Shown here: positions 23,296-52,135 of the stretch, piece after piece
How positions within the stretch are numbered: the first letter of the stretch is position 1
Layout: each line of letters starts with the position of its first letter
Virus record (IMG/VR): IMGVR_UViG_3300031992_000042
Span: 41,696 to 105,695 of that record
Source of the DNA: a virus
Taxonomy: Duplodnaviria > Caudoviricetes
Direction: 5' to 3' (one strand)
DNA: 64,000 nucleotides
Translations under genes and position numbers: made by a program
The notes under the pieces: generated by a model
What the model saw: the letters and a program-made list of their open reading frames with translations, nothing else
Told to the model about the DNA's origin: nothing
The model's database searches: none

Positions 23296-25719
23296 ATGAA
23301 AATGATCCAGAAGCTAAACCTTATCGAAAATAAGGTTGACACCATCTCTCTGTTCACGTCAGCGTTCACAGACAAACTCGATGCTATGAGCATCGATCCC
23401 AAAGACGCAATCGTCAAGATTTGCGCAGAGTGCCCTAAGAACGATGAAGCAGAAGCTATTGTCAAGGCTACACTTGCGAACTATTGCGCCGAAGGTTATC
23501 TCCTCGGAGAGAACATTTACGATGCATTTTGCGCTGGTGCTAGCGATGCTCGTAAAGCTACAGCTACTTGGCTTCGGCACGATCTCGTTCCTGAACTTGG
23601 CAAGTGGGCTATGTGTGGGTTGAACACCAAGAACATGAAACTCGCTATTAACAAGTACATGGCATACATCGGATTGCTGTTCTCTGCAAGCAAGCCTTTC
23701 GTCGATGTTTTCGGCAAGAAGATTGACATTCGTCGTGTCGCTGTTATCAAAGATACAGATGTTGTCGTTAACGCAGTTGCAGATCTTGTGACGATGGAAT
23801 CTGTGTCTCGTAAGGTTAATCGCGAGATGGTTATCAATGCATTTGATGGATGTGGAATCCATCGCTATGAACTTACAAACGGCGAAGCTTGCACTTTAAG
23901 AGACGCTTGGATGAAGATCTGCAGTTTCCCTGTAAAGTGGAGTAAACTGTTTGGTTTCTGCTGCGACCGTGGCATCAAAGCTACGTTTGTAGACTTCTGG
24001 GGTAATGAGATCGCTCTGAAAGACGTGGATCTTATTATCACGGAGTCTTGCTTCAAAACAATTAAACTGTATGAATCTTGGGAGCAGTATTGCAGCGCTC
24101 ACGAAGCTCTTGGACATGAAATCCGTGTCTGCGTACGGGAGCACGCTCCGAAGCTGAAGGGACTTCCTTATCAGCAAGGTCAGACTCTGATGGGTAACGA
24201 AGACGACGCAATGTCCTTCGCTATGCATGCCAAGAAAACGGTGTACAAGTATCATGACATAGCTGGCGCACCGAAACTCCTCCGTGGCGCTCATCAGCAG
24301 GCTGCAAAGATGTATCCTGCGCTGATGACTGAAGGTCATACTAAACGGGCAATGCAGGAAATGTACACAACCAAACGTAACGATATGCTCGGCGGACGTA
24401 TCCCTGAGCTTGGTTACAATGCGTTTCTCGCTCCTGATCCGGTTGCATTTGCAGAGCATCTGTTCGGACTGGAAATCAAAGGCTTCCTGAAAGCAGGAGA
24501 ATGCTATTGCTCGAACTGCAAGGAAGGTCTCGTTGATGTGACTCGGTCTCCGCACCTGGACAACGCACATGTCCTTCTGAACAACGTGACTGAATGCCCG
24601 CTGGCAGAAGGTCCTACGATGTTCATCAACATCTTCGACACAACTACTATTCAGCTTCGTGCTGACTATGATGGCGATCATGTATGGTACAGCCAAGACG
24701 AACATCTGCTTCGACTGGTTGAAGAAACCTACGAAAAGCTGAACAATATTCCTGTTGATTGGGATGTTGCTAAAACAGATAAAGTCCAGATCACCAAGTC
24801 TGGAGTTGCGAACTTCATCATCAACCTGATCCACGGATCTGAAATCGGCTTGTATGCCGATGCTCTGACTAAGATGTGGAATCAAGCTTACGATCAGGAC
24901 GTCTGTGATTGGTTAACTTATGCAGCTAACGTTCTTATCGATGCTGCAAAGCATGCGACTGTGAAGATTAAGAAACCTGATGCGGTTGTCGAACTGAACA
25001 AGGTTTCTCTTCCGCTGTTTGCAATGTATGCCAAAGCGGATGCTGACCGTCCTGTCGGTGACTATTGGCTGAAAGAGCGCAAAGTCATGACTCGTCGCGG
25101 AGAAGAAGTAAATCTGCCTCCCCGTTGTGCTTATTCTGGATCTTTCTTGGATATGTATTCTAAGAAGGTGCAAGAGAACGTGACTGAAACGCTGACAGTC
25201 GAAGGACTGGATAACGAAATCTTCGACGTCACCAAGATGATGTTCGACGCGCATCGCAAGATCGGCAAACTGTCTGGTCTGTCCAAAAAGGGCGTTTACA
25301 ACGAACAGACTGGCAAGTTCAACGACTGTGGTCTCTTCCAAGAGATTGCCTTTCGGCACAGCACCGAATGGAACAAACTGGTAGGAGAAACTTCCTTCTT
25401 TGCTCATCGCCGTGAGTGGGAAGAAGAAGTTGCGAAAGCTGCCCGCAAGGAGATCATCGACTGGGCTCGTGCTCAGTACGAAAATACTTCTGACATCTCC
25501 GATGAACGCATTGAAGATGCTTGCTATGACATAATTGTCCGTAACATTTACGGTACAAAGATGAGTGATGGCATGGACACTGTAATCAAACAGGCGTTCT
25601 GGAGAATCTATGGAGATAAGGCTGTGAAGGCTCTGAAGCAGAACCTGAACGAGTCTATCCCGGACTTCGATGACGAAGAGTTTGAAGAGCTCTTCGATGT
25701 AAGTGACTGCGATTGCTAA
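23296..25719 (+). CDS. Single-subunit DNA-dependent RNA polymerase, YonO/RdRP-like (copy 1)
   Basis: FDGCG, VTRSPH, catalytic ADYDGDH, IDAAK motifs. Confidence 0.85.
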   Translation: MKMIQKLNLIENKVDTISLFTSAFTDKLDAMSIDPKDAIVKICAECPKNDEAEAIVKATLANYCAEGYLLGENIYDAFCAGASDARKATATWLRHDLVPELGKWAMCGLNTKNMKLAINKYMAYIGLLFSASKPFVDVFGKKIDIRRVAVIKDTDVVVNAVADLVTMESVSRKVNREMVINAFDGCGIHRYELTNGEACTLRDAWMKICSFPVKWSKLFGFCCDRGIKATFVDFWGNEIALKDVDLIITESCFKTIKLYESWEQYCSAHEALGHEIRVCVREHAPKLKGLPYQQGQTLMGNEDDAMSFAMHAKKTVYKYHDIAGAPKLLRGAHQQAAKMYPALMTEGHTKRAMQEMYTTKRNDMLGGRIPELGYNAFLAPDPVAFAEHLFGLEIKGFLKAGECYCSNCKEGLVDVTRSPHLDNAHVLLNNVTECPLAEGPTMFINIFDTTTIQLRADYDGDHVWYSQDEHLLRLVEETYEKLNNIPVDWDVAKTDKVQITKSGVANFIINLIHGSEIGLYADALTKMWNQAYDQDVCDWLTYAANVLIDAAKHATVKIKKPDAVVELNKVSLPLFAMYAKADADRPVGDYWLKERKVMTRRGEEVNLPPRCAYSGSFLDMYSKKVQENVTETLTVEGLDNEIFDVTKMMFDAHRKIGKLSGLSKKGVYNEQTGKFNDCGLFQEIAFRHSTEWNKLVGETSFFAHRREWEEEVAKAARKEIIDWARAQYENTSDISDERIEDACYDIIVRNIYGTKMSDGMDTVIKQAFWRIYGDKAVKALKQNLNESIPDFDDEEFEELFDVSDCDC

Positions 25720-26189: not shown

Positions 26190-26194
26190 TAATT

Positions 26195-26226
26195 AGCCAG
26201 TCGAAAGACTGGCTTTTTTATTTTTT
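26195..26226 (+). terminator. Rho-independent terminator
   Basis: AGCCAGTC-gaaa-GACTGGCT plus T-run. Confidence 0.8.
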
Positions 26227-26419: not shown

Positions 26420-26441
26420 GACGGCGCAAGCGCCTGCTAAT
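26420..26441 (+). promoter_or_regulatory. Repeated palindromic motif B (GACGGCGCAAGCGCCTGCTAAT); copies at 27150 and 28148
   Basis: Three near-identical intergenic copies. Confidence 0.6.
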
Positions 26442-26475
26442 GCTGTGAAGATAAGTCTTATCTTCGTAATAATAT

Positions 26476-26718: not shown

Positions 26719-27196
26719 TACCTGCCACGACTACTGCTTTGCGCTGGTCAAGGTGGAAGAACCTTGTATGCATCCTCTGCTCATCCACGTTGGTGAGCGG
26801 AATTATGCATACAGGGACGCTTTCAAGAACAGGTGGCACGAAAAACTGTTCTTGTCTGACATGTCCTACATGAAGTTTATCGTTTCGAAGAGATGCCAGC
26901 TCTGACTGACGATAGCTGCACGGGTCCCGGGGGATGACGGGTCCCCTGGGGTTTGCCCGAACTTTTATATCGATATTATCTTAATCTTCATCGCTTCAGC
27001 GTTGAAGCGACTGAAGCGAGCTTCATGGGTTCCTCCTTTCTTAGGGACTGGCGTGGGAAACCAGTCCCATCCTTTCGTTAATTTGGCTTCGTGAGCTGTG
27101 CCATAAACAGCTCACTTTTTTTGTCTTAACCATGCTACTTGGCTTTAGCGACGGCGCAAGCGCCTGCTAATACCACGAACAAATCTCTACAAGGAG

Positions 27197-27655
27197 GTGT
27201 TAATTGTGCTAGAGATTATTGCTCATACCGATGGTTCGTGTTTAGGCAACCCCGGAGTTGGCGGATATGCCGCACGAATGGAAGCTAAAGGCAAGATTAA
27301 GTTTTGCCAAGGATACGAGACTGAGGACACGACTAACAACCGAATGGAACTTTGCGCTGTTATTCGTGTTATGAAGTGGTGCAATGCAATTCAAAAAGAG
27401 CCTTGCAAAGTGACCTTCTATACAGACAGTCAGTATCTTATCGACTGCTTCAAGCATGACTTCTCAGACCTGTCTTCTAACTCTAGAGCGAACAGTGACT
27501 TGTGGGTTCAGCTTATTAAAGAAACGCTGAACGGACATCACGAAATTTCCTTTGTGAAAGTGAAAGGTCACAACGGAAACATGCGCAACGAAGAAGTAGA
27601 CAAACTTGCAAAAGCGCAAGCGTTGAAAGCGAGGCATGAACGTTATGGAACTTAA
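27197..27655 (+). CDS. rnhA: Ribonuclease HI
   Basis: TDGSCLGNPG.GG, TTNNRMEL, TDSQY, KVKGH..NEEVDKLA. Confidence 0.92.
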   Translation: MLIVLEIIAHTDGSCLGNPGVGGYAARMEAKGKIKFCQGYETEDTTNNRMELCAVIRVMKWCNAIQKEPCKVTFYTDSQYLIDCFKHDFSDLSSNSRANSDLWVQLIKETLNGHHEISFVKVKGHNGNMRNEEVDKLAKAQALKARHERYGT

Positions 27656-27881
27656 AGCACACGTATTATCCTGTTTCGTTTCTTTGGCATCAGCTTTGGT
27701 TGTTGCCGCATTATTACTTGGAGGAATCTAACATGTGGGATGAAATACTGAAAAGCTACGACAATTTGGATGACTATTTCGCAGATCACCCAGAAGAATA
27801 CGATGACTACGTAGATGACATGTACGAACTCTACGGGCACGAAGAGCCTATCGACTATCCTGAAGACTGGGCGGTGTAATA

Positions 27882-28139
27882 ATGCAGATTCTTGATAATG
27901 TCATCATTCTTTCTTTGCCTGTGCTTGCATTTATTGCAGGCAAGATTATTTCTGACAGATACCATGAACGTCAGATTCAGGAACTTGAGTATCAGCTTCG
28001 ACTGTATGCCGCTGAACGTGGAGTGGGTTACGTTGCTCCTCCTGCAAAGCGTAAGTATGTCCCTATAGGTCAACCTTTTATGGACAAGCTGAAAGAGAAC
28101 GGTCATGCTACCCAAGCTCTTCGGAACCCTCATACTTGA
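27882..28139 (+). CDS. Small membrane-anchored hypothetical protein
   Basis: N-terminal hydrophobic helix. Confidence 0.5.
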   Translation: MQILDNVIILSLPVLAFIAGKIISDRYHERQIQELEYQLRLYAAERGVGYVAPPAKRKYVPIGQPFMDKLKENGHATQALRNPHT

Positions 28140-28374
28140 CCTAACGAGACGGCGCAAGCGCCTTCTAATTCTATGAAAAAGGAATCTTCATGATTCTTTT
28201 TATCGCATGAATGAAATCCATCACTCTTCGTGCAAGTGGCGTCACGTACCCACTATAAATACCGCCGCGTGATAGTCTGCATCGGACGATAAAAGATGGC
28301 GTTGGTCTGCACGAATCTGAAGCAGGCAGAAATACAAAACAAGTAATAAAAAGCAAATTTCGGAGGTAACTAAA

Positions 28375-28764
28375 ATGACTACATTTGTTGGTAATATTTC
28401 TAAGGCTGCAAACACCCGTTACGTTGAAGCTCTGCATACGACTGTGACCGACTTTAATGTCGCTGAGAACTATCAGGGTCGTAACGGCAAGCGGTATACT
28501 CAGTTCTACCGTGTCAGCATCTGGGATAAGCGTGGCGCTAACCTCGAGAAGTACCTGACACTGGGTCGTCCGATTCAGATTTCCGGTCGTGTTAAGGCTT
28601 CTGCCTACATCGACAAGGATGGCAAGGCTCAGGCTCAGCTCGAGATTGCGAATCCGCAGGTAACCTTCATCACTGCGAACGGCGCTCCTGAAGAAGTGGA
28701 TGCCGCCGCCGCTCCCGAAGCTCCTGTTGTGGACGAGATCCCGGAGGACGACAAGCCCTTTTGA
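28375..28764 (+). CDS. ssb: Single-stranded DNA-binding protein (copy 1)
   Basis: OB-fold SSB pattern; acidic tail EDDKPF. Confidence 0.8.
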   Translation: MTTFVGNISKAANTRYVEALHTTVTDFNVAENYQGRNGKRYTQFYRVSIWDKRGANLEKYLTLGRPIQISGRVKASAYIDKDGKAQAQLEIANPQVTFITANGAPEEVDAAAAPEAPVVDEIPEDDKPF

Positions 28765-29052
28765 TAAGACACTCCTCGGCATGGTGAGGAGACTATTTAA
28801 GTAAGATTAAGGAGTCAGACTTGATGGAAGTCTGGCTCCTATTTTTTACTTAACCCTGTTTTTTGGTATAGCCTGTCTCTTTTGTTTCTGCTGTCGCAAC
28901 ATGACAGTAGACATAAGAAAGATAGTTCGGTACCTAAATTTGAAGACTTTCTAAGATGGCTATAAGGGGAGGAGAATTTTTGGGGGCATATATTTTCTGT
29001 GCCGCAGATTTTTTGTAAGCCTCTTACATTTTTTAAGATAGGAGAACAATCG

Positions 29053-29355
29053 ATGACAGAAAAAATAGCTATGCTGGCAGAAGACACAGAGACTGTTATT
29101 AACTTTTGCAAGCACAACATCGGAGACTGGGCAGAAGTATACACGACAGACAAGGCGGTAATGAAGCGGTACGATAAGTTTATGCGGAACCATCCGGAGT
29201 GCTGCCGACTGGTAGGAGAAGACAAATACTCTATGACGTTTAGCGTAGACCCTAAATGTGCATCCTATTTTCCAAGAGCCCCTCGTAAAGTTAATTATAC
29301 AGAGGAGCAAAAGCGACTGCTTACAGAACGTTTAGCCGCCGTAAGAAACAGATAA
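29053..29355 (+). CDS. Hypothetical protein
   Basis: AGGAGA RBS before MTEKI; downstream of motif A. Confidence 0.6.
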   Translation: MTEKIAMLAEDTETVINFCKHNIGDWAEVYTTDKAVMKRYDKFMRNHPECCRLVGEDKYSMTFSVDPKCASYFPRAPRKVNYTEEQKRLLTERLAAVRNR

Positions 29356-29679
29356 GCACAGAATATAGTTTCTTGCCTAGATAAACACAAGTGACTTGTG
29401 ACTGGAAACATACTCTATACAGAGAATGAGTATTTGTTCGTCCTAAAAAGCTAATCCGAAGCAATATGAAGTGAGTTCTGTAAAAAAAGGAGATAAACCT
29501 ATGACTGAAATTAGAATTTATCCTGAACACGACAAAATTGTCGTTACGCATGAATGTTCTGACCCTGACGACGCACTGATAGAGATGGTTTCTGCATATA
29601 AAGAATGGGAAGACGATGGATGGGAATATTATCGTATGCCTTTGTCTGAATTTATGAAAAACTTTAGGAAGAACGACTG

Positions 29680-30325
29680 AAGACTTATCTTTTAGTTAAT
29701 GTCTTAACGTTTAGTGACTGATCTTATCTGTTTAGACTGTCTATACTAAAAAGACATAATCTTCACTTGTTCAGATTAGTCTTTTTAGAATTCATTAGTC
29801 TTATCTGTCAGTTAAGACTCTATTATAAAGTCTCACTTACAACTTAAATTAACGTTCCTCTATATTCCCCTTTTATGGGGAATATAGGGAACGTATTAAA
29901 CGAATAATCTGTACTTATCGTTAAGTAACTGAACGTTTAGTCTCTTAACTGACTATATAGCCTTATCTTTCAGTTAAGACTCTTCTTTAAAAGATTATTC
30001 TTAAAGATAAGTCTATAATATATATATAATTATTATTATATAGAAGGAACTTTTCTAAATATGATTAATTAATCTAAAAATGATAAGACTTATCTGGTTT
30101 TAAAGACTTTATTTAGGGGATAGTCTTTACTGTAGAGACTTTATTGTTTAGTAGAGATTAATTCTTTCAATAAAATACAATACAAAAAAGATTAGTTTTA
30201 CATAACAGTAAAGATCTATTCTTTCAAAATAATTCCTATTCAAATAGTCTTAACAACATTATCTAAAATAATTCTCTAATACTTAAACAATCTATAAACG
30301 ATAAGACTATCTAAAAGATAAGGAG
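29680..30325. other. AT-rich non-coding region with iterated AAGACT/CTTATCT words; candidate replication origin
   Basis: No ORFs; repeated gataagac/gtcttatc/cagttaagactct; long inverted repeat 29849-29899. Confidence 0.5.
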
Positions 30326-32740: not shown

Positions 32741-33064
32741 ATGCTTGAAGAATTTTTAGATCATAAACTACTGATCAATATAAAAGGTGCGTCAGTAGAA
32801 GAGCTTAGAAAACTTGATGAGCTTATCGGTGTCAAATTTCTATCTAATAGAACAATAGAAGATATTCCGTCTAAAGATGACAGATATTTACACTGCAGAA
32901 CATCTCAAGAATTTGATAGAAAATATATTTCGTTTTCGATGGACCCGATTGATGCTTTTGAAGAGCGTAAGCCTATGCCGTATGTTTATTATTATGAAAT
33001 ACTCTGTCTGGCTAATAATTTTGAATTAAAAGAAGATGATCTGATGAATTTATTAAAGGAGTGA
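32741..33064 (+). CDS. Hypothetical protein (tandem paralog of 32428-32736)
   Basis: MLEEFLDHKLLI. Confidence 0.6.
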   Translation: MLEEFLDHKLLINIKGASVEELRKLDELIGVKFLSNRTIEDIPSKDDRYLHCRTSQEFDRKYISFSMDPIDAFEERKPMPYVYYYEILCLANNFELKEDDLMNLLKE

Positions 33065-40172: not shown

Positions 40173-40186
40173 CAGCCTTTATATAT

Positions 40187-41376: not shown

Positions 41377-41379
41377 CTA

Positions 41380-41895: not shown

Positions 41896-41942
41896 ATTGT
41901 TTATTAGCTTTTAAAGCATATTTATATAAAATTTGAAAAAGG

Positions 41943-42395
41943 ATGGTATGTATGAGAAATGGATATAAAATGCTCTTTATGCCAGAACATCATCGTGCAG
42001 ATATAACAGGATGTGTTTATGAACATGTTATTGTCGCAGAACAAAAAATAGGACGAGAATTAAAAGATGAAGAAGTAGTCCATCATATTGATGAAAATAG
42101 AAGTAATAACTCACCAGAAAATTTAATGGTTTTTGCAAATACAGCAGAACATAGTGCTTATCATGCCACACATGAGGCATATCAGATTGATAATATTTGG
42201 TATGCATCAAGAAAAAGAAAGCCAAAAGAATGTAAAATTTGTGGCAAAATGTTTATTCCTAAATATAAAAATATAAATTATTGTTCGCATAAATGTGCAC
42301 AAAAAGCTAATAGAAAATTACCAGATATCGACCAAGTTGTAAATGTACTTCGAAAAAAACAACGGCAATATGAGTGCTGTCAGCAGAATTTTTAA
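41943..42395 (+). CDS. HNH homing endonuclease (C-terminal HTH out of frame)
   Basis: YEHVIVAE..VVHHIDENRSNNSPENL; CKICG..CS..C. Confidence 0.8.
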   Translation: MVCMRNGYKMLFMPEHHRADITGCVYEHVIVAEQKIGRELKDEEVVHHIDENRSNNSPENLMVFANTAEHSAYHATHEAYQIDNIWYASRKRKPKECKICGKMFIPKYKNINYCSHKCAQKANRKLPDIDQVVNVLRKKQRQYECCQQNF

Positions 42396-42479
42396 TGTTA
42401 CTCCTAATGCAATTGTAAGAATACTTAAAAGAAATAATTTGCCATATCATAGTAATGATTATGCAAATTAAATATATAT

Positions 42480-42553
42480 GGCTCGTTAGCTTAGCCCGGT
42501 AAAGCAGCCGCCTGTTAAGCGGAAGAGCGTAGGATCGAAGCCTACACGAGCCG
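42480..42553 (+). tRNA. tRNA-Asn(GTT)
   Basis: GGCTCGT/ACGAGCC acceptor, loop CTGTTAA. Confidence 0.8.
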
Positions 42554-42556
42554 CTT

Positions 42557-43049: not shown

Positions 43050-43658
43050 ATGATCAAAGTTACTCTTATTAGCACCAATGGACGCAAGACCGACATGTTT
43101 GCAGAACATCAGACTCCGCGTGAAGTATTTGAATACTTCGATGTTGATTATTCCGTCGCGACAAACACTATTGATGGTGTCAGGATTGGTATCGGTGACA
43201 TGGACAAGTCTCTGAAAGAGCTTGGCGCAGGAGCTGAATGCCGTATCTCGTCAATTGTTAAGACCGATAATGCTGCGCACATTGATCTGACTGGCGCTGC
43301 GGCTGTTCTGGTTTCCGATGTGAAACTGGAAGACTGGAAGCGTGTCGAAAAGTACGCACCGGAAGCTCTGAAAATCGTCGATGAAGAAGGCGATGTTGTC
43401 TTCAAGGTTATGACTTGTTGCTGCACTGGTTCTGTTAATGAAAACGGAGTGTGTTTCGGCACATACACCAACGAAGGCGGTCTTGCAACTGTGACAGTTC
43501 TGATGGACGATGAAGTAGAAGATCGTCTTCAGGCAATTAAAGATGTTGCTGGGCAGGCTCTGCTGGATCTGAATGATATTGAAAAGGATATTCCTCAGAT
43601 TCTGAAGGACATTGAAGAGAAAGAAGCGGAGATTGAAAAGCTGATTGTAGCTAAGTAA
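43050..43658 (+). CDS. Ubiquitin-like (beta-grasp) N-terminal domain protein
   Basis: First ~75 aa show a beta-grasp-like pattern ending IVKTDNA; leads the E2/JAB/E1 operon. Confidence 0.55.
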   Translation: MIKVTLISTNGRKTDMFAEHQTPREVFEYFDVDYSVATNTIDGVRIGIGDMDKSLKELGAGAECRISSIVKTDNAAHIDLTGAAAVLVSDVKLEDWKRVEKYAPEALKIVDEEGDVVFKVMTCCCTGSVNENGVCFGTYTNEGGLATVTVLMDDEVEDRLQAIKDVAGQALLDLNDIEKDIPQILKDIEEKEAEIEKLIVAK

Positions 43659-43670
43659 TCTCCGATACAT

Positions 43671-43702
43671 AGGGGCTGAGGTTAAACTCAGCCCCTTTTT
43701 TT
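43671..43702 (+). terminator. Terminator after Ubl gene
   Basis: AGGGGCTGAG-gttaaa-CTCAGCCCCT plus T-run. Confidence 0.8.
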
Positions 43703-43732
43703 AAAAATTATAAGGAGATTAAAAGTACAAAA

Positions 43733-45151
43733 ATGTTTAGAGAACATATTGAAAAACCAATTGATCCTATTCCGCAGGTTTACGCTGACAAAATTCAGCG
43801 CCTGTATAACGAACCTGATTATAGTTTAACCTCTCTTGGTATTGCACTTCTTAAATCACGTATTGAAAATTATGACGGTATTACTGGTGTTTATTATAGC
43901 TACGACAATAAAGTAAATGCATTTAAGGACTTTGTTAATCGAGTAAATTCTGTCGATACTCATCCTTTGTATTGCTATTATATATATAGTACAGATAACG
44001 ATGTTTCAGATATTATAAATGAAAATCTGTCTGAATTTAAAGAAAGAAAAAATATTTCTGCATTCATTAAAGAAAAGTCCGACAACGAATGCACTGTTTT
44101 ATATCATGAAACAAAGAATGCAGTAGGTATCTTTGTTAATTCAAGAGATTTTCGACTGTATCATCTTCTGATGTCATTCGTTTCTTTGTATTATCCTTCT
44201 TTGTTTGTAGAAAAGAAGATGACAGAAGAAGACTATACAATTGTTAAATCATTATCTAATAAAGAAAAAGATAAGTTTTATACAAGTGTTCAGAACGTAT
44301 TAAAGCCTTTCACGATTGAATTTAGAAGGCTTCAACTTAGTTCTTTAATGAAAGATATTCATGATGTAAAGATTAACAATGCTTTGAACAATGTAAATAA
44401 TCTGAGAAGTAGTGCAAATTCTATCGAAGAACAGCTTGGACGTGTTATCGCACAGTTAAAGGATGCTATTGTACTTTATGAAGGTATGAAAGCTACTGAA
44501 AATTATGATGCTCCTGAAGAAGAATTGGTAGAATATCTTTCAAATAATGCCGATATTCATGGTCTTGATATTAGAGATCATCATTTATATTTCTCTGTTA
44601 CAACATTGCTGAACAATTTTAATCAGCAAGCATGGGATACGTTTAGCAATCGTGGGAATATTTATGACGGCGAATATAGCGCAAATTTGCTTGACGTATT
44701 CAAGAAAAGAGAAAACAGAAAGATCATTCTTGATGCTATCTTCAGTGAAGACCCGAAACTGTTTGTGCGAATGGCTGGAAATTATATTATCAATCTTGAT
44801 CAGTGTAGAGTATCTACCAGTTCTGGATATGATTATGAAAATGTCGATCCTATATTTAAAGATTATATGCCGAATCCGCATTTGAAAATCTTCGAATGTC
44901 TAGGCGGATATAGAGACCGAATTATGCCCGCGTTAAGAGATCGTAATTATATTTCAGCTATTGAAATTTGTATTGCTTCAGCAGGATCTATTAATCTTGA
45001 TGAAGTTACCCAAACATTCAGACCATTCTTAGGATGGATTCTGTCTAGTACAAATAAGATTATGCAAACTCAGGATGGAACTGCCATGACACCTGAAGAG
45101 GCACTTGTATGGTTAATTGATAATAAGGAGAAAGATAATGCGACCGATTAA
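43733..45151 (+). CDS. Coiled-coil protein with C-terminal prokaryotic E2-like domain
   Basis: PNPHL...CLG motif; located between Ubl and JAB genes. Confidence 0.55.
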   Translation: MFREHIEKPIDPIPQVYADKIQRLYNEPDYSLTSLGIALLKSRIENYDGITGVYYSYDNKVNAFKDFVNRVNSVDTHPLYCYYIYSTDNDVSDIINENLSEFKERKNISAFIKEKSDNECTVLYHETKNAVGIFVNSRDFRLYHLLMSFVSLYYPSLFVEKKMTEEDYTIVKSLSNKEKDKFYTSVQNVLKPFTIEFRRLQLSSLMKDIHDVKINNALNNVNNLRSSANSIEEQLGRVIAQLKDAIVLYEGMKATENYDAPEEELVEYLSNNADIHGLDIRDHHLYFSVTTLLNNFNQQAWDTFSNRGNIYDGEYSANLLDVFKKRENRKIILDAIFSEDPKLFVRMAGNYIINLDQCRVSTSSGYDYENVDPIFKDYMPNPHLKIFECLGGYRDRIMPALRDRNYISAIEICIASAGSINLDEVTQTFRPFLGWILSSTNKIMQTQDGTAMTPEEALVWLIDNKEKDNATD

Positions 45152-45962
45152 TCTGTCGAATGAGGCAATAGAAAAATTATACGGTGAATTTCTTGAAAAA
45201 TTCAAGAATGAAATAGCAAATTACGGTTTTAACGGCGGTTCTTCGATGACAATTAAAACTAATTTCGAAGAAGTTGCTAAAGAAAAGGTTATTATTAGAT
45301 ATACACAGGAAGCGTTCTTGCGTATGCAAGCGTTGGTAGATTTCTTTGATTCTGAAGTTGCATGGTATGGGCTTTGTGAACGGCTCGGAGAAAAAGAATT
45401 TAGAGTGTATGACGTTAAGGTTTGTAAGCAAGAAGTTACAGGAGCTAAAGTAGATACAAGCGATGAAGACACTTTAGAATTCTTCTGCAGTCTAACTGAT
45501 GATGAAGCTGAACATTTGCATTTTCAGGCTCATAGTCATGTGAAAATGTCTACTGGAGCATCAGGTACGGATATTCAGAATCAGCAGGATGTTGTAAAGA
45601 ATATGGGTAAGACTGGTTATTATATTTTCCAGATTTGGAACAAAAATAACGATATTAATACTTATCTGTATGATTTAGATAATAATGTTTTCTATGATCG
45701 AAAAGACGTAATGATCGTGATCGAAGATAGCCTTGGAGATCTGGATGACTTTATTGCATCTATTGCTGATTGTGTTGTAGAAAAGAAAACATATCCATAT
45801 CAGTATAGTGGAAGTGGCTATGCTGGAAATTACTATAATAAATCCGTAGAAACGAAAACTCCAAAAAAAACAAAAGAAAACGAAGAAGATGACTACGACA
45901 CGGTCTATCTAGGAGAATATTATGATGGTATTCATGGATATTATGGAAGGAGCGATTGGTAA
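45138..45962 (+). CDS. JAB/MPN metalloprotease
   Basis: SEVAW..HSHVKMSTGASGTD (E..HxH..S..D); overlapping start MRPINL. Confidence 0.85.
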   Translation: MRPINLSNEAIEKLYGEFLEKFKNEIANYGFNGGSSMTIKTNFEEVAKEKVIIRYTQEAFLRMQALVDFFDSEVAWYGLCERLGEKEFRVYDVKVCKQEVTGAKVDTSDEDTLEFFCSLTDDEAEHLHFQAHSHVKMSTGASGTDIQNQQDVVKNMGKTGYYIFQIWNKNNDINTYLYDLDNNVFYDRKDVMIVIEDSLGDLDDFIASIADCVVEKKTYPYQYSGSGYAGNYYNKSVETKTPKKTKENEEDDYDTVYLGEYYDGIHGYYGRSDW

Positions 45963-46634
45963 TTGAATTTATCAAAAAGCTTTGAGTTTTTTAATCCTGA
46001 AGTGTGTATAGATACTATTCATATTATCGGCTGCGGTTCAGTTGGTTCAACCGTAGCCGAACTTCTTGCTAGGTTTGGTTTAAAAAATGTTAAACTTTAC
46101 GATTTCGACTTTGTAGAAGAGCATAATTTGGCTAACCAAATGTTTACAACAGAGAACTTGTATAAACCAAAGGTTGAAGGCGTATATGACCGATGGGTTT
46201 CTATCAATCCTGAAGCCGCTAAAACAATTAAATTATATGGTGACGGTTGGACAGGACAAAAATTAAACGGTTATGTATTTCTGTGTGTAGATAACATTGA
46301 ACTTCGCAAGAAGATCGTAGAAGAAAATAAGTATAATCTGAACATTAAAGCAATGTTTGACTTTAGGACGAGTTTAGATACAGCGCAGCACTATGCAGCA
46401 GACTGGTCTAAGCCTAAAAGTATTGAAGCGTTGCTTGATACAATGGATTTTACTCATGCAGAAGCTGAGAAGAATACTCCAATGAGTGCTTGTAAAGTTT
46501 CTTTGTGTGTAATGCCAACTGTTTGGTCTGTGGCAATGGCTGGTGTAGTAAATTTTGTAAATTTCGTTAAAGAAGGCAAATTAGAACAGGCTGTTATTAC
46601 AAGACCATTTGCATTTGATACTCTTATTTGTTAA
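45963..46634 (+). CDS. ThiF/E1-like activating enzyme
   Basis: IIGCGSVGS, DFDFVEEHNLANQ, K, CVDN...R, distal SAC. Confidence 0.9.
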   Translation: MNLSKSFEFFNPEVCIDTIHIIGCGSVGSTVAELLARFGLKNVKLYDFDFVEEHNLANQMFTTENLYKPKVEGVYDRWVSINPEAAKTIKLYGDGWTGQKLNGYVFLCVDNIELRKKIVEENKYNLNIKAMFDFRTSLDTAQHYAADWSKPKSIEALLDTMDFTHAEAEKNTPMSACKVSLCVMPTVWSVAMAGVVNFVNFVKEGKLEQAVITRPFAFDTLIC

Positions 46635-47143
46635 TAAAGTCCATCAACTTCGGTTGGACTGTTTATGTTATAAATAGTAACGCTTTGCCCGGTAGGAGAC
46701 GACGGGCCAAATGCCCAGACGGCTGGAGGTGCTGCACTGCTTACTGCTGAAAGAGGCAAATCAAATTAGAAAACCTATAAAATAACTAATTTACACCTAT
46801 TCAATTGAAGAAATTCACTTGAATCAACCATAAAGTCGCCTGGGAAAAGAAGACTGAATCTTAATTTAGTTTATAAACAAAAGAGTATTAAAAATATCAT
46901 ATAAAGACCTTCAACTTATGTTGGACAATTTATGTTATAAGTTGTAACTCTTTGCCGGGGAATAGTGAAACGACGCGGGCATGTCTGAAGAACATTCCAC
47001 TCCCGAAATCATCGTAGAACAAAATGAACTGCTACTATACAAACTGAAAATTAAAATATTCAGTATTAACAGAACCATTAAGATAAATAGACCAATACGA
47101 CGGACGTCAAGAAACTCCCTGGGATCTCCTAATTTAGTTTATA
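46634..47143 (+). ncRNA. Two tandem ~267-nt structured repeat units upstream of RT
   Basis: 59-nt 5' blocks at 46634 and 46901 (49/59 identical); TAATTTAGTTTATA 3' blocks at 46862 and 47130; variable middles. Confidence 0.7.
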
Positions 47144-47166
47144 TGATACAAGAAAAGGAAGTAAAA

Positions 47167-48309
47167 ATGATTTATATTACAACAATGCAGCATAGGAAGC
47201 CAAGGCAATTATCTTGGGAAGATGTCATTATGGAAAAAGAAATTTTTAATGATTTTACTAATGACAAGTCTTCATCTACTGCAACAATTACAAGAAAATA
47301 CGAAGAAGTAAAAGAAGAAGTTCTTAACAGAATTAACGTAGATGCTATGATTAGATGGCTAAAACAGTTTAATGATTCGAATAAAGAACTGTTTGAAGCA
47401 GATCGTAAGTCTCTGTATTCGTCGTTTAAGATTCCGAAAACGACTGGTGGATTCAGGCAAATTGATGCTCCTTGTGAGAAATTGCAAGACGAATTACAAC
47501 GATTGGTACATTTCATTGGGGATGATTGCGGTGTGCTGTATCATACTGCTGCGTTCGCCTATGTAAAAGGCAGAAGTATTGTTGACTGCATAAGGAAACA
47601 TCAGAAGAATGAATCTATGTGGTTTCTGAAAACAGACTTTAGTGGGTTTTTTCCAAATACTACTTTGAATTTTACAATGAAAATGTTGTCGATGGTATTT
47701 CCACTGTCTGAAGTATGTAAAAGAGAAGATGGATATAAAGAATTAGAAAAAGCAATCAGCCTTGGATTCTTGAACGGTGGACTTCCTCAAGGAACTGTGT
47801 TGTCTCCGATGCTTACAAACATTTTTATGATTCCGATTGATCATAAATTGTTTAATGAATTGGCGGATCGACACATTGTTTATACACGATACGCTGATGA
47901 TATTCATATTTCAGCTCAGGAAAAATTTCCTTGGCAAGAAATTGTTAAATTGATTGAAGATACGCTAAAAGAATTTAATGCGCCTTGGGTAATTAAGAAA
48001 GAAAAGACACATTTTGGTAGTAGAAAAGGTCGCAACTGGTCATTAGGATTAATGCTGAACAGTGATAATAATATAACTGTTGGATGGAAGAAGAAACAAT
48101 ATTTCAAGGCTGCGCTATGTTCGTTTATTCTTGATACAAAGAATGGCAAACATTGGGATATTGGAGATGTTCAACATCTTCGTGGTCAATTGTCCTATTA
48201 TACAATGGTTGAAAAAGATTATTTTAATAGCATTATAAAACAGCAAAATAAGAAATGGAATGTAAATGTAAACGATATGTTTAAAGCATATCTCAATGGA
48301 ACTGTTTGA
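47167..48309 (+). CDS. Retron-like reverse transcriptase (380 aa)
   Basis: IPKTTGGFRQIDAP, AFAY, KTDFSGFF, LPQGTVLSPMLTN, YTRYADD; AAGGAAG RBS before ATG 47167. Confidence 0.9.
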   Translation: MIYITTMQHRKPRQLSWEDVIMEKEIFNDFTNDKSSSTATITRKYEEVKEEVLNRINVDAMIRWLKQFNDSNKELFEADRKSLYSSFKIPKTTGGFRQIDAPCEKLQDELQRLVHFIGDDCGVLYHTAAFAYVKGRSIVDCIRKHQKNESMWFLKTDFSGFFPNTTLNFTMKMLSMVFPLSEVCKREDGYKELEKAISLGFLNGGLPQGTVLSPMLTNIFMIPIDHKLFNELADRHIVYTRYADDIHISAQEKFPWQEIVKLIEDTLKEFNAPWVIKKEKTHFGSRKGRNWSLGLMLNSDNNITVGWKKKQYFKAALCSFILDTKNGKHWDIGDVQHLRGQLSYYTMVEKDYFNSIIKQQNKKWNVNVNDMFKAYLNGTV

Positions 48310-48379
48310 CAAAGAAAAGTCGAAAGACTTATTTAATGTTATTAAATAAAACGAGAAAAGACTACATGTAAATAATAAA

Positions 48380-48432
48380 ACTTGATCGTTCCTGAAGGCG
48401 GAACTAAAGTACCGCCTTCAGGAAGATCAAGT
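48380..48432 (+). other. Long near-perfect hairpin downstream of RT
   Basis: ACTTGATC-g-TTCCTGAAGGCGG..CCGCCTTCAGGAA-GATCAAGT. Confidence 0.7.
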
Positions 48433-48471
48433 CTTCTTATTTAATCAATACTTTGTATTCAGTTTGTTAAA

Positions 48472-48520
48472 TAGTTAGGTACCTAACTTTGAAGACTTTC
48501 TAAGTTTGGTATAAGGGGAG
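48472..48520 (+). promoter_or_regulatory. Motif A copy
   Basis: TAGTTAGGTACCTAACTTTGAAGACTTTCTAAGTTTGGTATAAGGGGAG. Confidence 0.65.
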
Positions 48521-49220
48521 AGAGTTAAGAAAGGAAGGAAGTGCTCCTGTTTTTCTCTCTCTTTAACATGTCTCGATGTTACGCATACGTGCAGCGGTTA
48601 GTAGAGACTTCTGCCCGAAAGGGCAGAATTATATGAGGCTGACAAGTTCACGGCTTGAAAGTCTCTTGCAGTTTGCCAGAACTCATCTGGTGTAGAATAT
48701 GCTTTAAAGCGCTTACCGCGTTTAAAGACACCCGTGAGTGTCTAACGCGGTATTTTGCTCTGCTGCGTAAAAGCTTAATGACAGGCTCGCCACCTGTCGG
48801 AGTAACAACAAAAGACAGTTATACTGTGTCAGATCTTTCCTGATATCTAGATAGTTCGACTAATCATCGGACTACACCTACACATTTTTCCTTTCTGTAT
48901 GTTCTGGATAGGTTCTGCTGACAACATAGGATGAACTTTCTCCCCGAGGTTTATCCTATTATGCGGTACTTGCGTAAAGGTTAAATGCAACCTCGCCTGT
49001 TGCAGCCGCCAATTTAATAAAATGAAAGCACCATATAAAGACCTGCATCATATGACGATACTGGTGCTGCAGCAAGTTCACTCGTATTCTTTAAACAAAC
49101 AGGATGTAAGAATGCCCCATGTTGATTTAGAGACCACCAGATACGAGACTTATTGCTGTTGGAGCTGTTTATTATTACGGGTTGGGTTCGTATACCGACA
49201 TAAACAGCTCCTATTTTTTA
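48521..49220 (+). ncRNA. Candidate large structured RNA or leader upstream of RNAP 2
   Basis: Multiple hairpins; ends in a terminator-like GGAGCTG..CAGCTCC plus T-run. Confidence 0.4.
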
Positions 49221-49297
49221 TTACAGAATTAGTAAATCTATCCTTTTGGATTAAATATACGTATCTTAAAAACAACAAAATGAAAGGGGGCCGCGAG

Positions 49298-52135
49298 ATG
49301 TCTGTAAAGACATACTTGCAAGAACAGATTCGTCTTGTATCTTTGTTAAGTAAAGACTTATACACAGATGAAGAAATGATTCTGTACAAAAAAATAATCG
49401 ATCAGAAAAATATCCTAGATCTGATGGATGAGAAAGGAGCAGAAAAAGAAGAACGCAAAGCTGTAATCAACGAGAAAAATAAACTAAAAACACAGCTTGA
49501 TAAGCTTATTCTTTCTCATGCAGATACGCCAAGAACTGTGAACTTAAAGTCTGTCATCTATTATCCCAAAGATGCAGACTATCCTTTTCCCGAAGGAGTA
49601 ACTTATCGAAGTTTAAAAACAAATAAAAAAATAGCTGAGTTTTGTTGCGAATTATCCCGCGCAATGGGACTTGAAAATTTAGACTGTACTCTTGATTTAA
49701 TTGTAATCAAATGGAAAAACATAGAGATTTTAAGACAACTAGTAGTTAATGGATTTTATATGCCAATTCTGAATAAAGATGGCACAGTAGAAAATAGACA
49801 CTATCATTTTTATACAGCCAGCAGCGGTCAGTTAAGGCGTGATAAGTTCATGGCAATATCTGACAGCACATGGAATAAAATTCATAATAAACTTGAATGC
49901 GGTATTACTTGGGATGTTATCAACGCAAAAGGCGGGATAAACTCAAATAAGTTAAGTGCTTATGATGCGCTTCAAAATTCTGCAACTGAAGTATGGGAAG
50001 ATTTTAATATAGATTCTGTAATTGTAGTCGATGATTATGAAGGCGAAGTTACTGATAGAATGATTTATATTAAACCTGATTATACGTTTGAAAAAGGAAT
50101 ACGTACAGTAAAGATAACACATACAGACGGATGTGGAATGATGCTCCCTGAAATATCTGATTCGAATTTTATGATCAGAATACCGTATGGAAAAGGCTTA
50201 TTAATAGTATTTGACTTTATAAGATTCTGCAAAGAACATAATGTAGAACCTATAGTAACTGATATATATGGCAAACAATGGCATCTAATAAACGATAATA
50301 TTAAAATAATTCTGTTTAAAAGTATGTTTAAACTTTGGAAATATTTTAATAACTGGCAAGAGTATAAAGATGAATTCAAGAAGAACGAATGCCATTGCGG
50401 AAAAACTAACTATGAAGAAGAATTCTTAGCAAATAAAACATTAAATTATCAAATGATAGATACGTTAACAGATTTTACGGATGAAGAAATTAAACAGTTT
50501 ACAGAAAAAGAACATGAACGTATCGTTAAGCTCACAAAAGATAAAGATGCAATGCTTGACGTGTTGAAAGCAAATGAAAAAAGTGAGCAACCATATAAGG
50601 TTGCTCTTAAAATTTATCCAGAACTTTTACGTGAAGCTTATGCTCGACAATCTTTAATTGATATTCGTAAGCGAATGTTATTGGATGCTAAATCTGGAAA
50701 AATAAGGAGTTTAAATAAACGTTTATTTGCTTGTCCAGATCTATATGGCGTTTGTGAATGGCTGTTTTTACATGATGAACATCCTAAAGGATTACTAAAA
50801 AACGGAGAAGTTGCATGTAAAATATTTAGACGGCATGAAAAAGTAGACGTGCTTCGAAGTCCACATTTAGCGATGGAACATGGCGTACGAAATATCGTAC
50901 AGAATCAAAAAGTCTATGATTGGTTCTGTACAAATGGATTATATAGCTCGTTGCATGATTTATTAAGCAGATTGTTGCAATGCGACTGGGACGGGGATCA
51001 GCTGAATGTTGTAGCCGATCCTTTATTTGTCGAAATTGCAGAAAGAAACATCAAGAAATATGACGTTGTACCGTTGTTTTACGAGATGGACAAGGCTCCG
51101 GCTGAAATAATAGACAGTAATACTATGTTCAACGCTTTAAAAAGAGCTCATGACTATTCTGCTGGAGAAATAACAAGTATAGGCGAGATATCTAATATGT
51201 TGACTCGTCTTTGGAATAAAGAAAATCCAGATAGAGATGTTGCTAATCTGCTTACAATGTTCAACAATTTAGTGATTGACGCAGCTAAGAACGGAAAAAT
51301 AAACCATTATAAGAATTATCCAAAGATAGCGAAAAGAATTGGCAAAGCTACCGGAGGTAAAAATGGTCGCATGCCTTACTGGTTTCAATTCTCAAAAAAT
51401 GGCAGAAAAGATACGCCAGAAAATAGAAACCGTAAATATGCAGAACCCAATAATTCAACGATGAACCGAATATGTAAAGCATTTGACGATATTGGATATA
51501 TAAATCTAAACTATGCTGGCATTTCTCAGTTCAATTATCAAATGCTTATGTCTGCTCCATGCTATGATTCAAAACCTGAAATTTATCAGTTATTTTGCGA
51601 GCTTGATAACTCGAATAAATCAAGTATTATTGCTTCGCAAGAAAATACTTATGCTTCAGAGAAGCAACTGATAAATAATTATAGTATAGTAGCGGAAGAC
51701 ATTACAAACGAGATCATTCAAAGATATGGTTCATTGGAATATGCCTATCCATATATAGTAAAGTATCTTTTTGCAGGAGAAGGCATGGACAAATCTGCGC
51801 ATAAACAAATGTTCTGGCGTGTGTTTGGAGAAATTGCATTAAATAATCTTCGCAAGAATTTATCAGAATGTGATACGTGTAAAGATTGTTTTATAAAAAT
51901 ACCAGCATGGGTAGAAGACCATAACTGTATAAAAAATACAAAAGGTTTTTATGAATGCATAGACTGTCATGTTTTATGTGAACGAACTAATCCGAAGCAA
52001 TGTCGTTGTACAGAATGCCAATCTGTGTATAAAACATTACAAAGACGGATAAAGCAAAGAGCCAAAAGAGAATTAAAGAAAGTAATTGAAGAACAACGTA
52101 TTACGTCCTTGGGATCGTTCTTGAACAAGACGTAA
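49298..52135 (+). CDS. Single-subunit DNA-dependent RNA polymerase, YonO/RdRP-like (copy 2)
   Basis: TASSGQLR, TDGCG..IR..KG, VLRSPH, catalytic CDWDGDQ, IDAAK, C-terminal Zn fingers; start MSVKT with AAGGGGG RBS. Confidence 0.88.
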   Translation: MSVKTYLQEQIRLVSLLSKDLYTDEEMILYKKIIDQKNILDLMDEKGAEKEERKAVINEKNKLKTQLDKLILSHADTPRTVNLKSVIYYPKDADYPFPEGVTYRSLKTNKKIAEFCCELSRAMGLENLDCTLDLIVIKWKNIEILRQLVVNGFYMPILNKDGTVENRHYHFYTASSGQLRRDKFMAISDSTWNKIHNKLECGITWDVINAKGGINSNKLSAYDALQNSATEVWEDFNIDSVIVVDDYEGEVTDRMIYIKPDYTFEKGIRTVKITHTDGCGMMLPEISDSNFMIRIPYGKGLLIVFDFIRFCKEHNVEPIVTDIYGKQWHLINDNIKIILFKSMFKLWKYFNNWQEYKDEFKKNECHCGKTNYEEEFLANKTLNYQMIDTLTDFTDEEIKQFTEKEHERIVKLTKDKDAMLDVLKANEKSEQPYKVALKIYPELLREAYARQSLIDIRKRMLLDAKSGKIRSLNKRLFACPDLYGVCEWLFLHDEHPKGLLKNGEVACKIFRRHEKVDVLRSPHLAMEHGVRNIVQNQKVYDWFCTNGLYSSLHDLLSRLLQCDWDGDQLNVVADPLFVEIAERNIKKYDVVPLFYEMDKAPAEIIDSNTMFNALKRAHDYSAGEITSIGEISNMLTRLWNKENPDRDVANLLTMFNNLVIDAAKNGKINHYKNYPKIAKRIGKATGGKNGRMPYWFQFSKNGRKDTPENRNRKYAEPNNSTMNRICKAFDDIGYINLNYAGISQFNYQMLMSAPCYDSKPEIYQLFCELDNSNKSSIIASQENTYASEKQLINNYSIVAEDITNEIIQRYGSLEYAYPYIVKYLFAGEGMDKSAHKQMFWRVFGEIALNNLRKNLSECDTCKDCFIKIPAWVEDHNCIKNTKGFYECIDCHVLCERTNPKQCRCTECQSVYKTLQRRIKQRAKRELKKVIEEQRITSLGSFLNKT

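What the first reader, a model, noticed from the sequence alone, without database searches (positions are those of the whole stretch)
23296..52135. Two free YonO-like RNAPs plus the TMP-fused one: possible three-polymerase cascade
Seen: a compact 807-aa DYDGD enzyme in the early block and a ~945-aa DWDGD enzyme with C-terminal Zn fingers beside the replication genes, along with several distinct intergenic motif families. Known: SPbeta has one YonO. Inference: early, middle and late transcription each use a phage RNAP, largely independent of the host enzyme.
Basis: partly seen in the sequence, partly recalled or inferred. Interest (0 to 1): 0.75.

Follow-up and report, generated by a model that had tools for sequence, protein, structure and literature searches.

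The report
Three RNA polymerases in one phage
This 106-kb temperate tailed phage from a metagenome, and at least nine relatives, each carry three genes for single-chain RNA polymerases of the cellular "two-barrel" type, one of them built into the tail tape measure protein, which suggests a three-step, largely phage-run transcription relay that no paper I found describes.

Summary
P0001 (23296-25719, 807 aa, DYDGD) and P0002 (true start 49298, 945 aa, DWDGD, ten C-terminal cysteines) are YonO homologues. P0002 is the SPbeta YonO orthologue and lies beside exonuclease, primase-helicase and DNA polymerase genes. The third enzyme is the N-terminal module of a 4682-aa tape measure protein (DYDAD); its model matches QDE-1.

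- **Catalytic motifs:** all three keep them, invariant within each family.
- **Conservation:** nine of ten related viral genomes carry the full trio; the tenth is unresolved. The two free enzymes form two separate, roughly co-diverging clades.
- **Timing:** in a TAG-recoded relative, the block from the P0001-type gene to the reverse-transcriptase gene has 0 in-frame TAG in 2887 codons (12.5 expected). The YonO orthologue, replication genes and virion genes carry TAG.
- **Candidate promoter:** a 22-nt element occurs only three times in the genome, just downstream of the P0001 operon.

The cascade is plausible but inferred. No promoter classes matched to the three enzymes were found. A tyrosine integrase and an operator-like cluster argue against full independence from the host polymerase. 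The closest published cases are P23-45 and N4. This scan already noted the same trio in another genome (e1-5767643).

The parts
3..5894 (-). First 1964 codons of the 4682-aa tape measure protein gene. The gene continues 8.2 kb beyond the left edge of the window.
   Evidence: PhageMin_Tail at residues 1757-1964, 9.9e-25; tape measure PHROGs
1995..4697 (-). Two-barrel RNA polymerase module of the tape measure protein (about residues 400-1300)
   Evidence: AlphaFold model, pLDDT 70. Foldseek best matches are QDE-1 (E 8.9e-07, prob 1.0) and RDR2. The family comprises 15 giant proteins.
3063..3218 (-). RSP...DYDAD metal-binding barrel motif (residues 893-944)
   Evidence: R893, P895, D940, D942 and D944 are invariant in 15 sequences
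4014..4040 (-). FRGGVGLKG basic motif of the second barrel (residues 619-627)
   Evidence: R620, K626, G627 invariant; aligns with the RIPYGKG motif of P0002
23296..25719 (+). A-type free polymerase P0001, 807 aa, a divergent YonO-like enzyme
   Evidence: phrog_8308 2.4e-74; Pfam RdRP 4.8e-10; SPbeta YonO 26% identity, E about 1e-31; hhalign against the YonO-orthologue family prob 100, E 3.9e-63
24544..24678 (+). RSP (417-419) ... DYDGD (457-461) catalytic motif of P0001
   Evidence: R417, P419, D457, D459, D461 invariant in 12 sequences
23893..23916 (+). TLRDAWMK basic motif of P0001 (residues 200-207)
   Evidence: R202, K207 invariant
49298..52135 (+). B-type free polymerase P0002, 945 aa, orthologue of SPbeta YonO (the frame is open from 49022)
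   Evidence: phrog_8308 1.3e-180; SPbeta YonO 35% identity, E 3e-126; start site
50855..50998 (+). RSP...DWDGD catalytic motif of P0002 (residues 520-567)
   Evidence: R520, P522, D563, D565, D567 invariant
50177..50197 (+). RIPYGKG basic motif of P0002
   Evidence: R294, K299, G300 invariant
51869..52018 (+). Cys-rich C-terminal tail of P0002 (ten Cys, zinc-ribbon-like)
   Evidence: C861, C864 and C877 invariant in the family; no Pfam match
26195..26214 (+). Terminator-like hairpin that closes the P0001 operon
26420..26441 (+). 22-nt element, copy 1, in the leader of gene 26476
27150..27171 (+). 22-nt element, copy 2, in the leader of the RNase H gene (27197-27655)
   Evidence: RNase H
28148..28169 (+). 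22-nt element, copy 3 (one mismatch)

Best explanation
The phage encodes three working two-barrel RNA polymerases that act at different times.

1. The polymerase module at the front of the tape measure protein is made late, built into the tail, and enters the cell with the DNA. There it could start transcription before any phage protein is made (inferred, by analogy with Thermus phage P23-45 gp96).
2. The compact A-type enzyme (P0001) is encoded at the head of the rightward block. It belongs to the early class and probably transcribes the next set of units. The three copies of the 22-nt element just downstream of its operon are candidate promoters for it (inferred).
3. The B-type enzyme (P0002) is the orthologue of SPbeta YonO. 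It is encoded with the replication genes, belongs to the later class, and probably transcribes the leftward virion and lysis operon as YonO does in SPbeta (inferred from orthology).

Shown here: homology, intact catalytic motifs, conservation of the trio, and two translation classes in a recoded relative. Not shown: enzyme activity, presence in the virion, or which enzyme uses which promoter. Because the phage is temperate, the host polymerase is still expected to serve lysogeny and the first step of induction.

The confidence of 0.5 is for the three-step relay. That all three are conserved two-barrel polymerase genes with intact catalytic residues I put at about 0.9.
For: **All three are two-barrel polymerases.**
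- P0002 matches SPbeta YonO (35% identity, E 3e-126) and phrog_8308 (1.3e-180).
- P0001 matches phrog_8308 (2.4e-74) and Pfam RdRP above its cut-off. hhalign against the P0002 family gives prob 100, E 3.9e-63.
- The tape-measure module's model matches QDE-1 (E 8.9e-07, prob 1.0).
- All three pass the [RK]xP-x(20-100)-DxDxD filter used by Chaban et al. (PMC10770324, Supplementary Data 4). The Asp triads and the R...K pair are invariant within each family.

**The set is conserved.**
- Ten IMG/VR relatives (G001-G010) each carry two free YonO-like genes and a giant tape measure ORF of 3348-7271 aa.
- Nine of the ten tape measure proteins carry DxDGD and match my profile of the module.
- In the tree, the A-type enzymes from 11 genomes sit on one side of a single branch, and the B-type enzymes from 9 genomes form a clade (support 100 each). 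The internal orders are similar.

**Timing.**
- In G003, which carries a tRNA with anticodon CUA, the block from the A-type gene to the RT-like gene has 0 in-frame TAG in 2887 codons (12.5 expected, P about 4e-06).
- The YonO orthologue has 6 TAG, the tape measure gene 18 and DNA polymerase 4.

**Published function.** YonO transcribes the SPbeta late operon (PMC5467207). P23-45 gp96 transcribes pre-early genes, including the gene for the second polymerase (PMC10770324).

**Candidate promoter.** The 22-nt element occurs only three times in 105.7 kb, all within 1.75 kb after the P0001 operon. The closest relative G004 has the same core three times in the same place. More distant relatives L003 and G003 have different repeated elements in that place.
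Against: - No enzyme activity, virion content or transcript data exist for this phage group.
- My motif searches found no genome-wide promoter classes. Upstream regions of A-type genes share nothing except the ribosome-binding site.
- The repeated element after the A-type gene was not detected in G001, G002, G005, G006 or G010 by exact-word counting.
- The phage has a tyrosine integrase and a cluster of palindromic operator-like words at 29681-30308. These imply a host-polymerase-driven switch.
- In G003 the TAG-free class also includes genes lying before the YonO orthologue. The recoding therefore shows two classes, not three.
- The tape-measure module has DYDAD rather than DxDGD.
- The P0001 structure model was too poor to use (pLDDT 55).
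Confidence: 0.5

Rival explanations
1. This is a host-started, two-step programme. The host sigma-A polymerase transcribes the earliest genes, including P0001, as it does for SPbeta early genes. The two free enzymes then serve middle and late genes. The tape-measure module is only an accessory used at infection.
For: The phage is temperate, with an integrase. An induced prophage has no injected enzyme. An operator-like palindrome cluster lies in a 780-bp non-coding region. SPbeta needs the host polymerase for everything except its late operon (PMC5467207).
Against: Sigma-70-like sites are not enriched in 20-40 kb (52 found, 51.2 expected). The tape-measure module keeps its catalytic residues across very divergent relatives, which implies selection for activity.
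Confidence: 0.28
2. P0001 is not a general transcriptase. It is a specialised enzyme for a small local regulon or for replication. For example, it could make primer or R-loop RNA that the neighbouring RNase H processes.
For: RNase H lies 1.5 kb downstream. In relative L003, RNase H and SSB follow the A-type gene. The repeated element is confined to under 2 kb, in front of these genes.
Against: The phage has its own primase-helicase (3e-60). The A-type lineage is kept in all 11 genomes with full-length catalytic motifs, which also fits a general role. The neighbouring genes are ordinary early genes.
Confidence: 0.14
3. One of the three enzymes, most likely the tape-measure module with its DYDAD motif, is catalytically dead and kept only for a structural role in the tail or the entry channel.
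For: Gly is replaced by Ala inside the metal loop. The module evolves very fast: single-sequence search missed it in four relatives. hhalign against the YonO family reaches only prob 36.
Against: The three Asp, the RxP and the R...KG motifs are invariant in 15 proteins down to 28% identity. Relatives carry canonical DFDGD. Active phage enzymes with non-Gly loops are listed in PMC10770324, Supplementary Data 4.
Confidence: 0.07

Closest known systems
Thermus phage P23-45 (gp96 tape-measure-fused virion RNAP plus gp64 non-virion RNAP; Chaban et al. 2024, PMC10770324)
   Same: A two-barrel polymerase sits at the N-terminus of a giant tape measure protein, and the same genome carries free two-barrel polymerase(s). 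The proposed logic is the same: the injected enzyme starts the programme.
   Different: P23-45 has two phage polymerases and uses the host polymerase for late genes. This phage has three. The module here resembles QDE-1/YonO, not gp96 (Foldseek on 8h2n: E 2.4), so the fusion looks independent. The host group and lifestyle also differ: this phage has an integrase.
Bacillus prophage SPbeta YonO (Forrest et al. 2017, PMC5467207)
   Same: P0002 is its orthologue (35% identity over 83% of the length). It lies beside replication genes in a temperate siphovirus. YonO transcribes the late operon.
   Different: SPbeta, Perkons and PMBT24 each show one YonO-type match. Their tape measure ORFs are 1510-2444 aa, and my search found no polymerase module in them. 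P0002 has an extra Cys-rich tail.
Coliphage N4 (virion RNAP, RNAP II, host RNAP; PMC4496689)
   Same: A three-polymerase temporal relay that begins with an injected enzyme.
   Different: The N4 enzymes are T7-like right-hand polymerases, not two-barrel enzymes. The third N4 polymerase is the host's.
phiKZ/AR9 jumbo phages (virion and non-virion multisubunit RNAPs)
   Same: Two phage-encoded two-barrel polymerase sets and host-independent transcription.
   Different: Those enzymes are multisubunit and there are two sets, not three single chains. The phages are lytic myoviruses.
crAss-like phage phi14:2 gp66 virion RNAP (PDB 6VR4)
   Same: A two-barrel polymerase embedded in a giant virion protein that is delivered to the host.
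   Different: It is not a tape measure fusion. The structural match here is weak (E 0.42).

Membership tests
Two-barrel (double-psi beta-barrel) RNA polymerases, YonO/QDE-1 clade | DxDxD metal-binding triad | tested here: met
   DYDGD (P0001), DWDGD (P0002) and DYDAD (tape measure). All Asp are invariant within each family.
Two-barrel (double-psi beta-barrel) RNA polymerases, YonO/QDE-1 clade | [RK]xP lying 20-100 residues before the triad (the filter of Chaban et al.) | tested here: met
   for all three; the residues are invariant
Two-barrel (double-psi beta-barrel) RNA polymerases, YonO/QDE-1 clade | Basic residues of the second barrel (R...K, often KG) | tested here: met
   R202/K207, R294/K299-G300 and R620/K626-G627 are invariant. 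Equivalence to the catalytic lysines rests on alignment only.
Two-barrel (double-psi beta-barrel) RNA polymerases, YonO/QDE-1 clade | Fold similarity to a solved two-barrel polymerase | tested here: inconclusive
   Tape-measure module: met (QDE-1 E 8.9e-07, prob 1.0, TM about 0.33). P0001: model pLDDT 55, not usable. P0002: not modelled.
YonO family proper (phrog_8308) | Significant full-length sequence match to YonO | tested here: met
   Met for P0001 (2.4e-74) and P0002 (1.3e-180). Not met for the tape-measure module (hhalign prob 36, E 3.7e-04), which I therefore do not file under YonO proper.
Tape-measure-fused virion RNAP (P23-45 gp96 type) | Polymerase module N-terminal to a tape measure domain in one polypeptide | tested here: met
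Tape-measure-fused virion RNAP (P23-45 gp96 type) | Specific homology to gp96 | tested here: not met
   Foldseek on 8h2n_A gives E 2.4, prob 0.03. The design is the same, but the protein is not a member of that family.
Tape-measure-fused virion RNAP (P23-45 gp96 type) | Present in virions and active on pre-early promoters | not testable with these tools
   Needs virion proteomics and transcription assays.
DNA-dependent RNA polymerase activity | Template-dependent RNA synthesis that depends on the Asp triad | not testable with these tools
   Shown for SPbeta YonO only (PMC5467207).

The most novel reading that the evidence does not exclude
A self-contained three-polymerase relay in a widespread group of temperate gut siphoviruses. 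Each enzyme has its own fast-co-evolving promoter, and the phage-specific repeated leader element after the A-type gene is the A-type promoter. In recoded relatives the relay is coupled to a genetic-code switch: the early polymerase class expresses the suppressor tRNA, and that tRNA is needed to translate the YonO-type late polymerase and the virion-borne polymerase.
Probability: 0.2. Interest if true: 0.85.

Novelty: new variant of a known kind. Interest (0 to 1): 0.62.

Why it matters
Relays of phage RNA polymerases are textbook cases of temporal gene control, and the known ones use at most two phage-encoded enzymes. A conserved set of three single-chain, cellular-type polymerases would extend that.

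- One enzyme would be delivered by the tail, one would be early and one late.
- This would be the most polymerase-rich phage programme I found described, and it sits in a common group of uncultured phages.
- It would supply three small natural two-barrel enzymes with presumably different promoter specificities, which could be compared to learn how minimal polymerases recognise promoters.
- It would link polymerase switching to stop-codon recoding.

Tried and rejected
- **Nucleotide search:** megablast of P0001 DNA against cultured phages found nothing.
- **Tape-measure module, sequence searches:** tblastn of its first 1400 aa against cultured phages gave no hit. PDB sequence searches for all three proteins found nothing useful.
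- **Length window:** the first homologue search for the module failed because the window-truncated protein set the wrong length range. It succeeded with the full 4682-aa gene.
- **Pattern scan:** the scan of IMG/VR with the module alignment found only one locus. Single-sequence search missed the module in four relatives. A profile and motif check then recovered it, so absence calls from single searches are unreliable here.
- **Promoter motifs:** exact-word counts and a home-made EM motif finder (crashed) gave only ribosome-binding sites and terminator hairpins. An alignment of regions upstream of A-type genes shared only the ribosome-binding site.
- **22-nt element as a sigma-A promoter:** rejected. 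The -35-like and -10-like words are 21-22 nt apart, and the -35-like word is absent in G004.
- **P0001 model:** pLDDT 55, so no fold search was run on it.
- **First tree:** it included an antisense ORF for G003 by mistake. This was corrected.
- **Metagenome records:** whole-record searches of ENA contigs are not possible.
- **Regulators:** Pfam and PHROG scans of neighbouring small genes found no sigma factor or known RNAP modifier.
Full report
**What is in the sequence**

The window is the right 64 kb of a single 105,695-bp phage contig. It has a leftward virion block (about 1-20.8 kb) and a rightward block running from about 21.2 kb to the end.

- **P0001.** The 807-aa ORF at 23296-25719 carries ADYDGDH.
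- **P0002.** The ORF at 49022-52135 is open for 1037 aa. It carries CDWDGDQ and ten cysteines in residues 858-907.
- **Tape measure protein.** The ORF at 3-5894(-) is the first 1964 aa of a 4682-aa gene. It has a PhageMin_Tail domain from residue 1757 and an RSP...DYDAD motif at residues 893-944.

**What the three proteins are**

P0002 is the orthologue of SPbeta YonO. It shows 35% identity over 83% of its length (E 3e-126) and matches phrog_8308 at 1.3e-180. Its neighbours are an exonuclease, a primase/helicase, a PD-(D/E)XK nuclease and a DNA polymerase.

P0001 is a divergent member of the same family:
- phrog_8308 at 2.4e-74, and Pfam RdRP above its gathering score;
- 26% identity to SPbeta YonO and 24% to P0002 (E 8e-26);
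- a profile-profile match to the P0002 family at prob 100, E 3.9e-63 over 691 columns.

Relative to P0002, it lacks the first roughly 108 residues and the Cys-rich tail.

The tape-measure module has no sequence match among cultured phages or in the PDB. It belongs to a family of 15 giant proteins of 3654-6520 aa. An AlphaFold model of residues 301-1350 (pLDDT 70) matches QDE-1 (E 8.9e-07, prob 1.0) and plant RDR2. It matches P74 gp62, crAss gp66 and P23-45 gp96 only weakly. Profile comparison with the YonO family is borderline (prob 36, E 3.7e-04, 498 collinear columns).

All three proteins pass the [RK]xP-x(20-100)-DxDxD filter. Within each family the Asp triad, the RxP and an R...K(G) pair in the other barrel are invariant. 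I therefore accept all three as two-barrel polymerases with intact active-site residues. Only P0001 and P0002 are members of the YonO family proper.

**Conservation of the set**

- **Free enzymes.** The P0001 family has at least 192 clusters in metagenomes. The YonO family has 791 representatives.
- **Shared contigs.** Contig lengths show P0001-type and giant tape measure proteins together on four large contigs.
- **Relatives G001-G005.** All five IMG/VR genomes have an A-type gene and a B-type gene and a tape measure ORF of 4637-7271 aa. A single-sequence search saw the module only in G003. The other four carry RxP...DFDGD at residues 940-1140 and match my module profile at 6e-13 to 4e-07.
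- **Relatives G006-G010.** All five again have two free YonO-like genes and giant tape measure ORFs. Four of the five have the module. G006 is unresolved because the N-terminus may not have been fetched.
- **Cultured relatives.** SPbeta, Perkons and PMBT24 show one YonO-type match each, and c-st has one that is annotated as split. Their tape measure ORFs are 561-2444 aa.

**Phylogeny**

In a maximum-likelihood tree of 51 free enzymes, the A-type proteins from 11 genomes sit on one side of a single branch. The B-type proteins from 9 genomes form a clade together with one metagenome representative. Both have support of 100. The internal orders are similar, and A-type branches are two to four times longer.

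- The A-type lineage lies near the Enterocloster phage PMBT24 enzyme.
- SPbeta YonO and Perkons lie elsewhere in the tree.
- Both paralogues were therefore present before this phage group radiated, and they have co-diverged since.
- The tree cannot say whether the two are sisters. The tape-measure module is too divergent to place.

**Evidence on timing**

Position. P0001 lies 2 kb into the rightward block, in an operon closed by a terminator-like hairpin at 26195-26214. P0002 lies 23 kb further on, with the replication genes. The tape-measure enzyme is in the virion block.

Recoding in a relative. G003 is syntenic with this genome, carries a tRNA with anticodon CUA, and has in-frame TAG codons. 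I counted only genes with homologues in this genome:

| Gene set in G003 | In-frame TAG | Codons |
|---|---|---|
| Virion block, tape measure, YonO orthologue, primase, DNA polymerase | 53 | 12,222 |
| A-type gene through the RT-like gene | 0 (12.5 expected, Poisson P about 4e-06) | 2887 |
| A-type gene alone | 0 (4.2 expected, P 0.015) | 961 |

- The suppressor tRNA lies inside the TAG-free block.
- The A-type enzyme can therefore be translated before suppression exists, whereas the YonO orthologue and the tape-measure enzyme cannot.
- This supports early versus later expression. It shows two classes, not three.

**Motifs**

No genome-wide promoter classes emerged.

The first local family is the 22-nt element GACGGCGCAAGCGCCTGCTAAT.
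- It occurs only at 26420, 27150 and 28148 in the whole genome.
- The first two copies lie in leaders about 30-50 nt before a start codon. One of these is the RNase H gene's start.
- G004, the closest A-type relative, has the same core three times in the same place.
- L003 has CACCGGGCTAAAGCCCTGC four times after its A-type gene, including before RNase H and SSB. G003 has a third, different element three times in that place.
- Five other relatives showed none by exact-word counting.
- The element is not a sigma-A-like promoter. It may be a polymerase-specific promoter or an RNA leader element.

The second local family is AGATAAGACT-type palindromic words. Nine of the sixteen window matches (6.5 expected) fall in the AT-rich non-coding stretch 29681-30308. 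This looks like an operator or iteron cluster.

**Dependence on the host**

Sigma-70-like sites are at chance level in 20-40 kb (52 found, 51.2 expected). Terminator-like hairpins are enriched (32 found, 13.6 expected). The genome also encodes a tyrosine integrase (phrog_1, 4.9e-35). An induced prophage has no injected enzyme, so the host polymerase must start at least that route. 'Largely independent of the host enzyme' is therefore not supported as stated.

**Comparison with known systems**

- **P23-45** has a tape-measure-fused virion polymerase plus one free polymerase, and uses the host enzyme late (PMC10770324).
- **N4** uses three polymerases, but they are T7-like and the third is the host's (PMC4496689).
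- **phiKZ-like phages** have two multisubunit sets.
- **SPbeta** has one YonO, which serves late genes (PMC5467207).
- The parts I read of the survey of viruses with two or more two-barrel polymerases (PMC10770324, Supplementary Data 4, parts 1-2) list a few uncultured siphoviruses with two single-chain enzymes. They list no such trio.
- Literature searches found no description of three phage-encoded two-barrel polymerases in one phage.
- Earlier notes of this scan report the same trio in another genome (e1-5767643) and a code switch next to a YonO-like gene (e1-5886505).

**Verdict**

The three-enzyme set is real, conserved and probably functional. The three-step cascade is a reasonable but unproven reading, with about even odds. 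Full host independence is unlikely for a temperate phage. I rate this a new variant of a known kind of system.

Noticed in passing
IMG/VR relative G003 (loci L110-L114), tRNA at 49228-49311: This syntenic 92-kb relative reads TAG as sense in its virion and replication genes and in its YonO orthologue. It encodes a tRNA with anticodon CUA inside the TAG-free early block. The window's own genome uses the standard code.
   Followed up: yes
window 29681-30308: An AT-rich 780-bp non-coding stretch holds at least nine AGATAAGACT-type words, several as palindromes, plus other short repeats. One more palindromic copy lies at 26449-26463. The stretch looks like an operator or iteron cluster, possibly the lysis-lysogeny switch or an origin.
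   Followed up: partly
window 46981-48309 and 48310-49297: A 442-aa reverse-transcriptase-like gene (phrog_2825, 3.4e-44) lies directly upstream of P0002. About 1 kb with no convincing gene follows it. Other notes of this scan call it retron-like; I did not test that.
   Followed up: no
window 43050-46634: Four co-oriented genes have no PHROG function. They are conserved and TAG-free in G003. Another note of this scan reads them as a ubiquitin-like conjugation operon; I did not test that.
   Followed up: no
window 39483-42554: Four tRNA genes (Ser-UGA, Thr-UGU, Gln-UUG, Asn-GUU) are interspersed with two HNH_3 endonuclease genes (39741-40172 and 41943-42395).
   Followed up: no
window 54127-56422: The primase/helicase ORF (473 aa) is followed by an HNH/homing-endonuclease gene (55631-56422). 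The G003 homologue of the primase-helicase is 614 aa. The gene here may therefore be interrupted by a mobile element.
   Followed up: no
IMG/VR relative G005, 19474-23971; Clostridium phage c-st CST179/CST177 (L130): The YonO orthologue of G005 is in three pieces separated by insertions. The c-st homologue is annotated as separate N- and C-terminal genes. Bacillus phages Goe11 and Goe14 annotate yonO_1 and yonO_2. YonO genes seem to be frequent targets of insertions or splits.
   Followed up: no
window 33061-33522: A 153-aa Macro-domain protein (2.2e-05) lies in the early/middle block. It is a possible ADP-ribose-related counter-defence gene.
   Followed up: no
genome 5341-6507(-), outside the window (L115): A tyrosine integrase gene (phrog_1, 4.9e-35) shows that the phage is temperate.
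   Followed up: partly
window 27652-29551: The longest ORFs here are on the minus strand, but the plus-strand ORF at 28375-28764 is the one conserved in G003 (3.8e-13). The apparent leftward mini-block is therefore probably an artefact of ORF length.
   Followed up: partly
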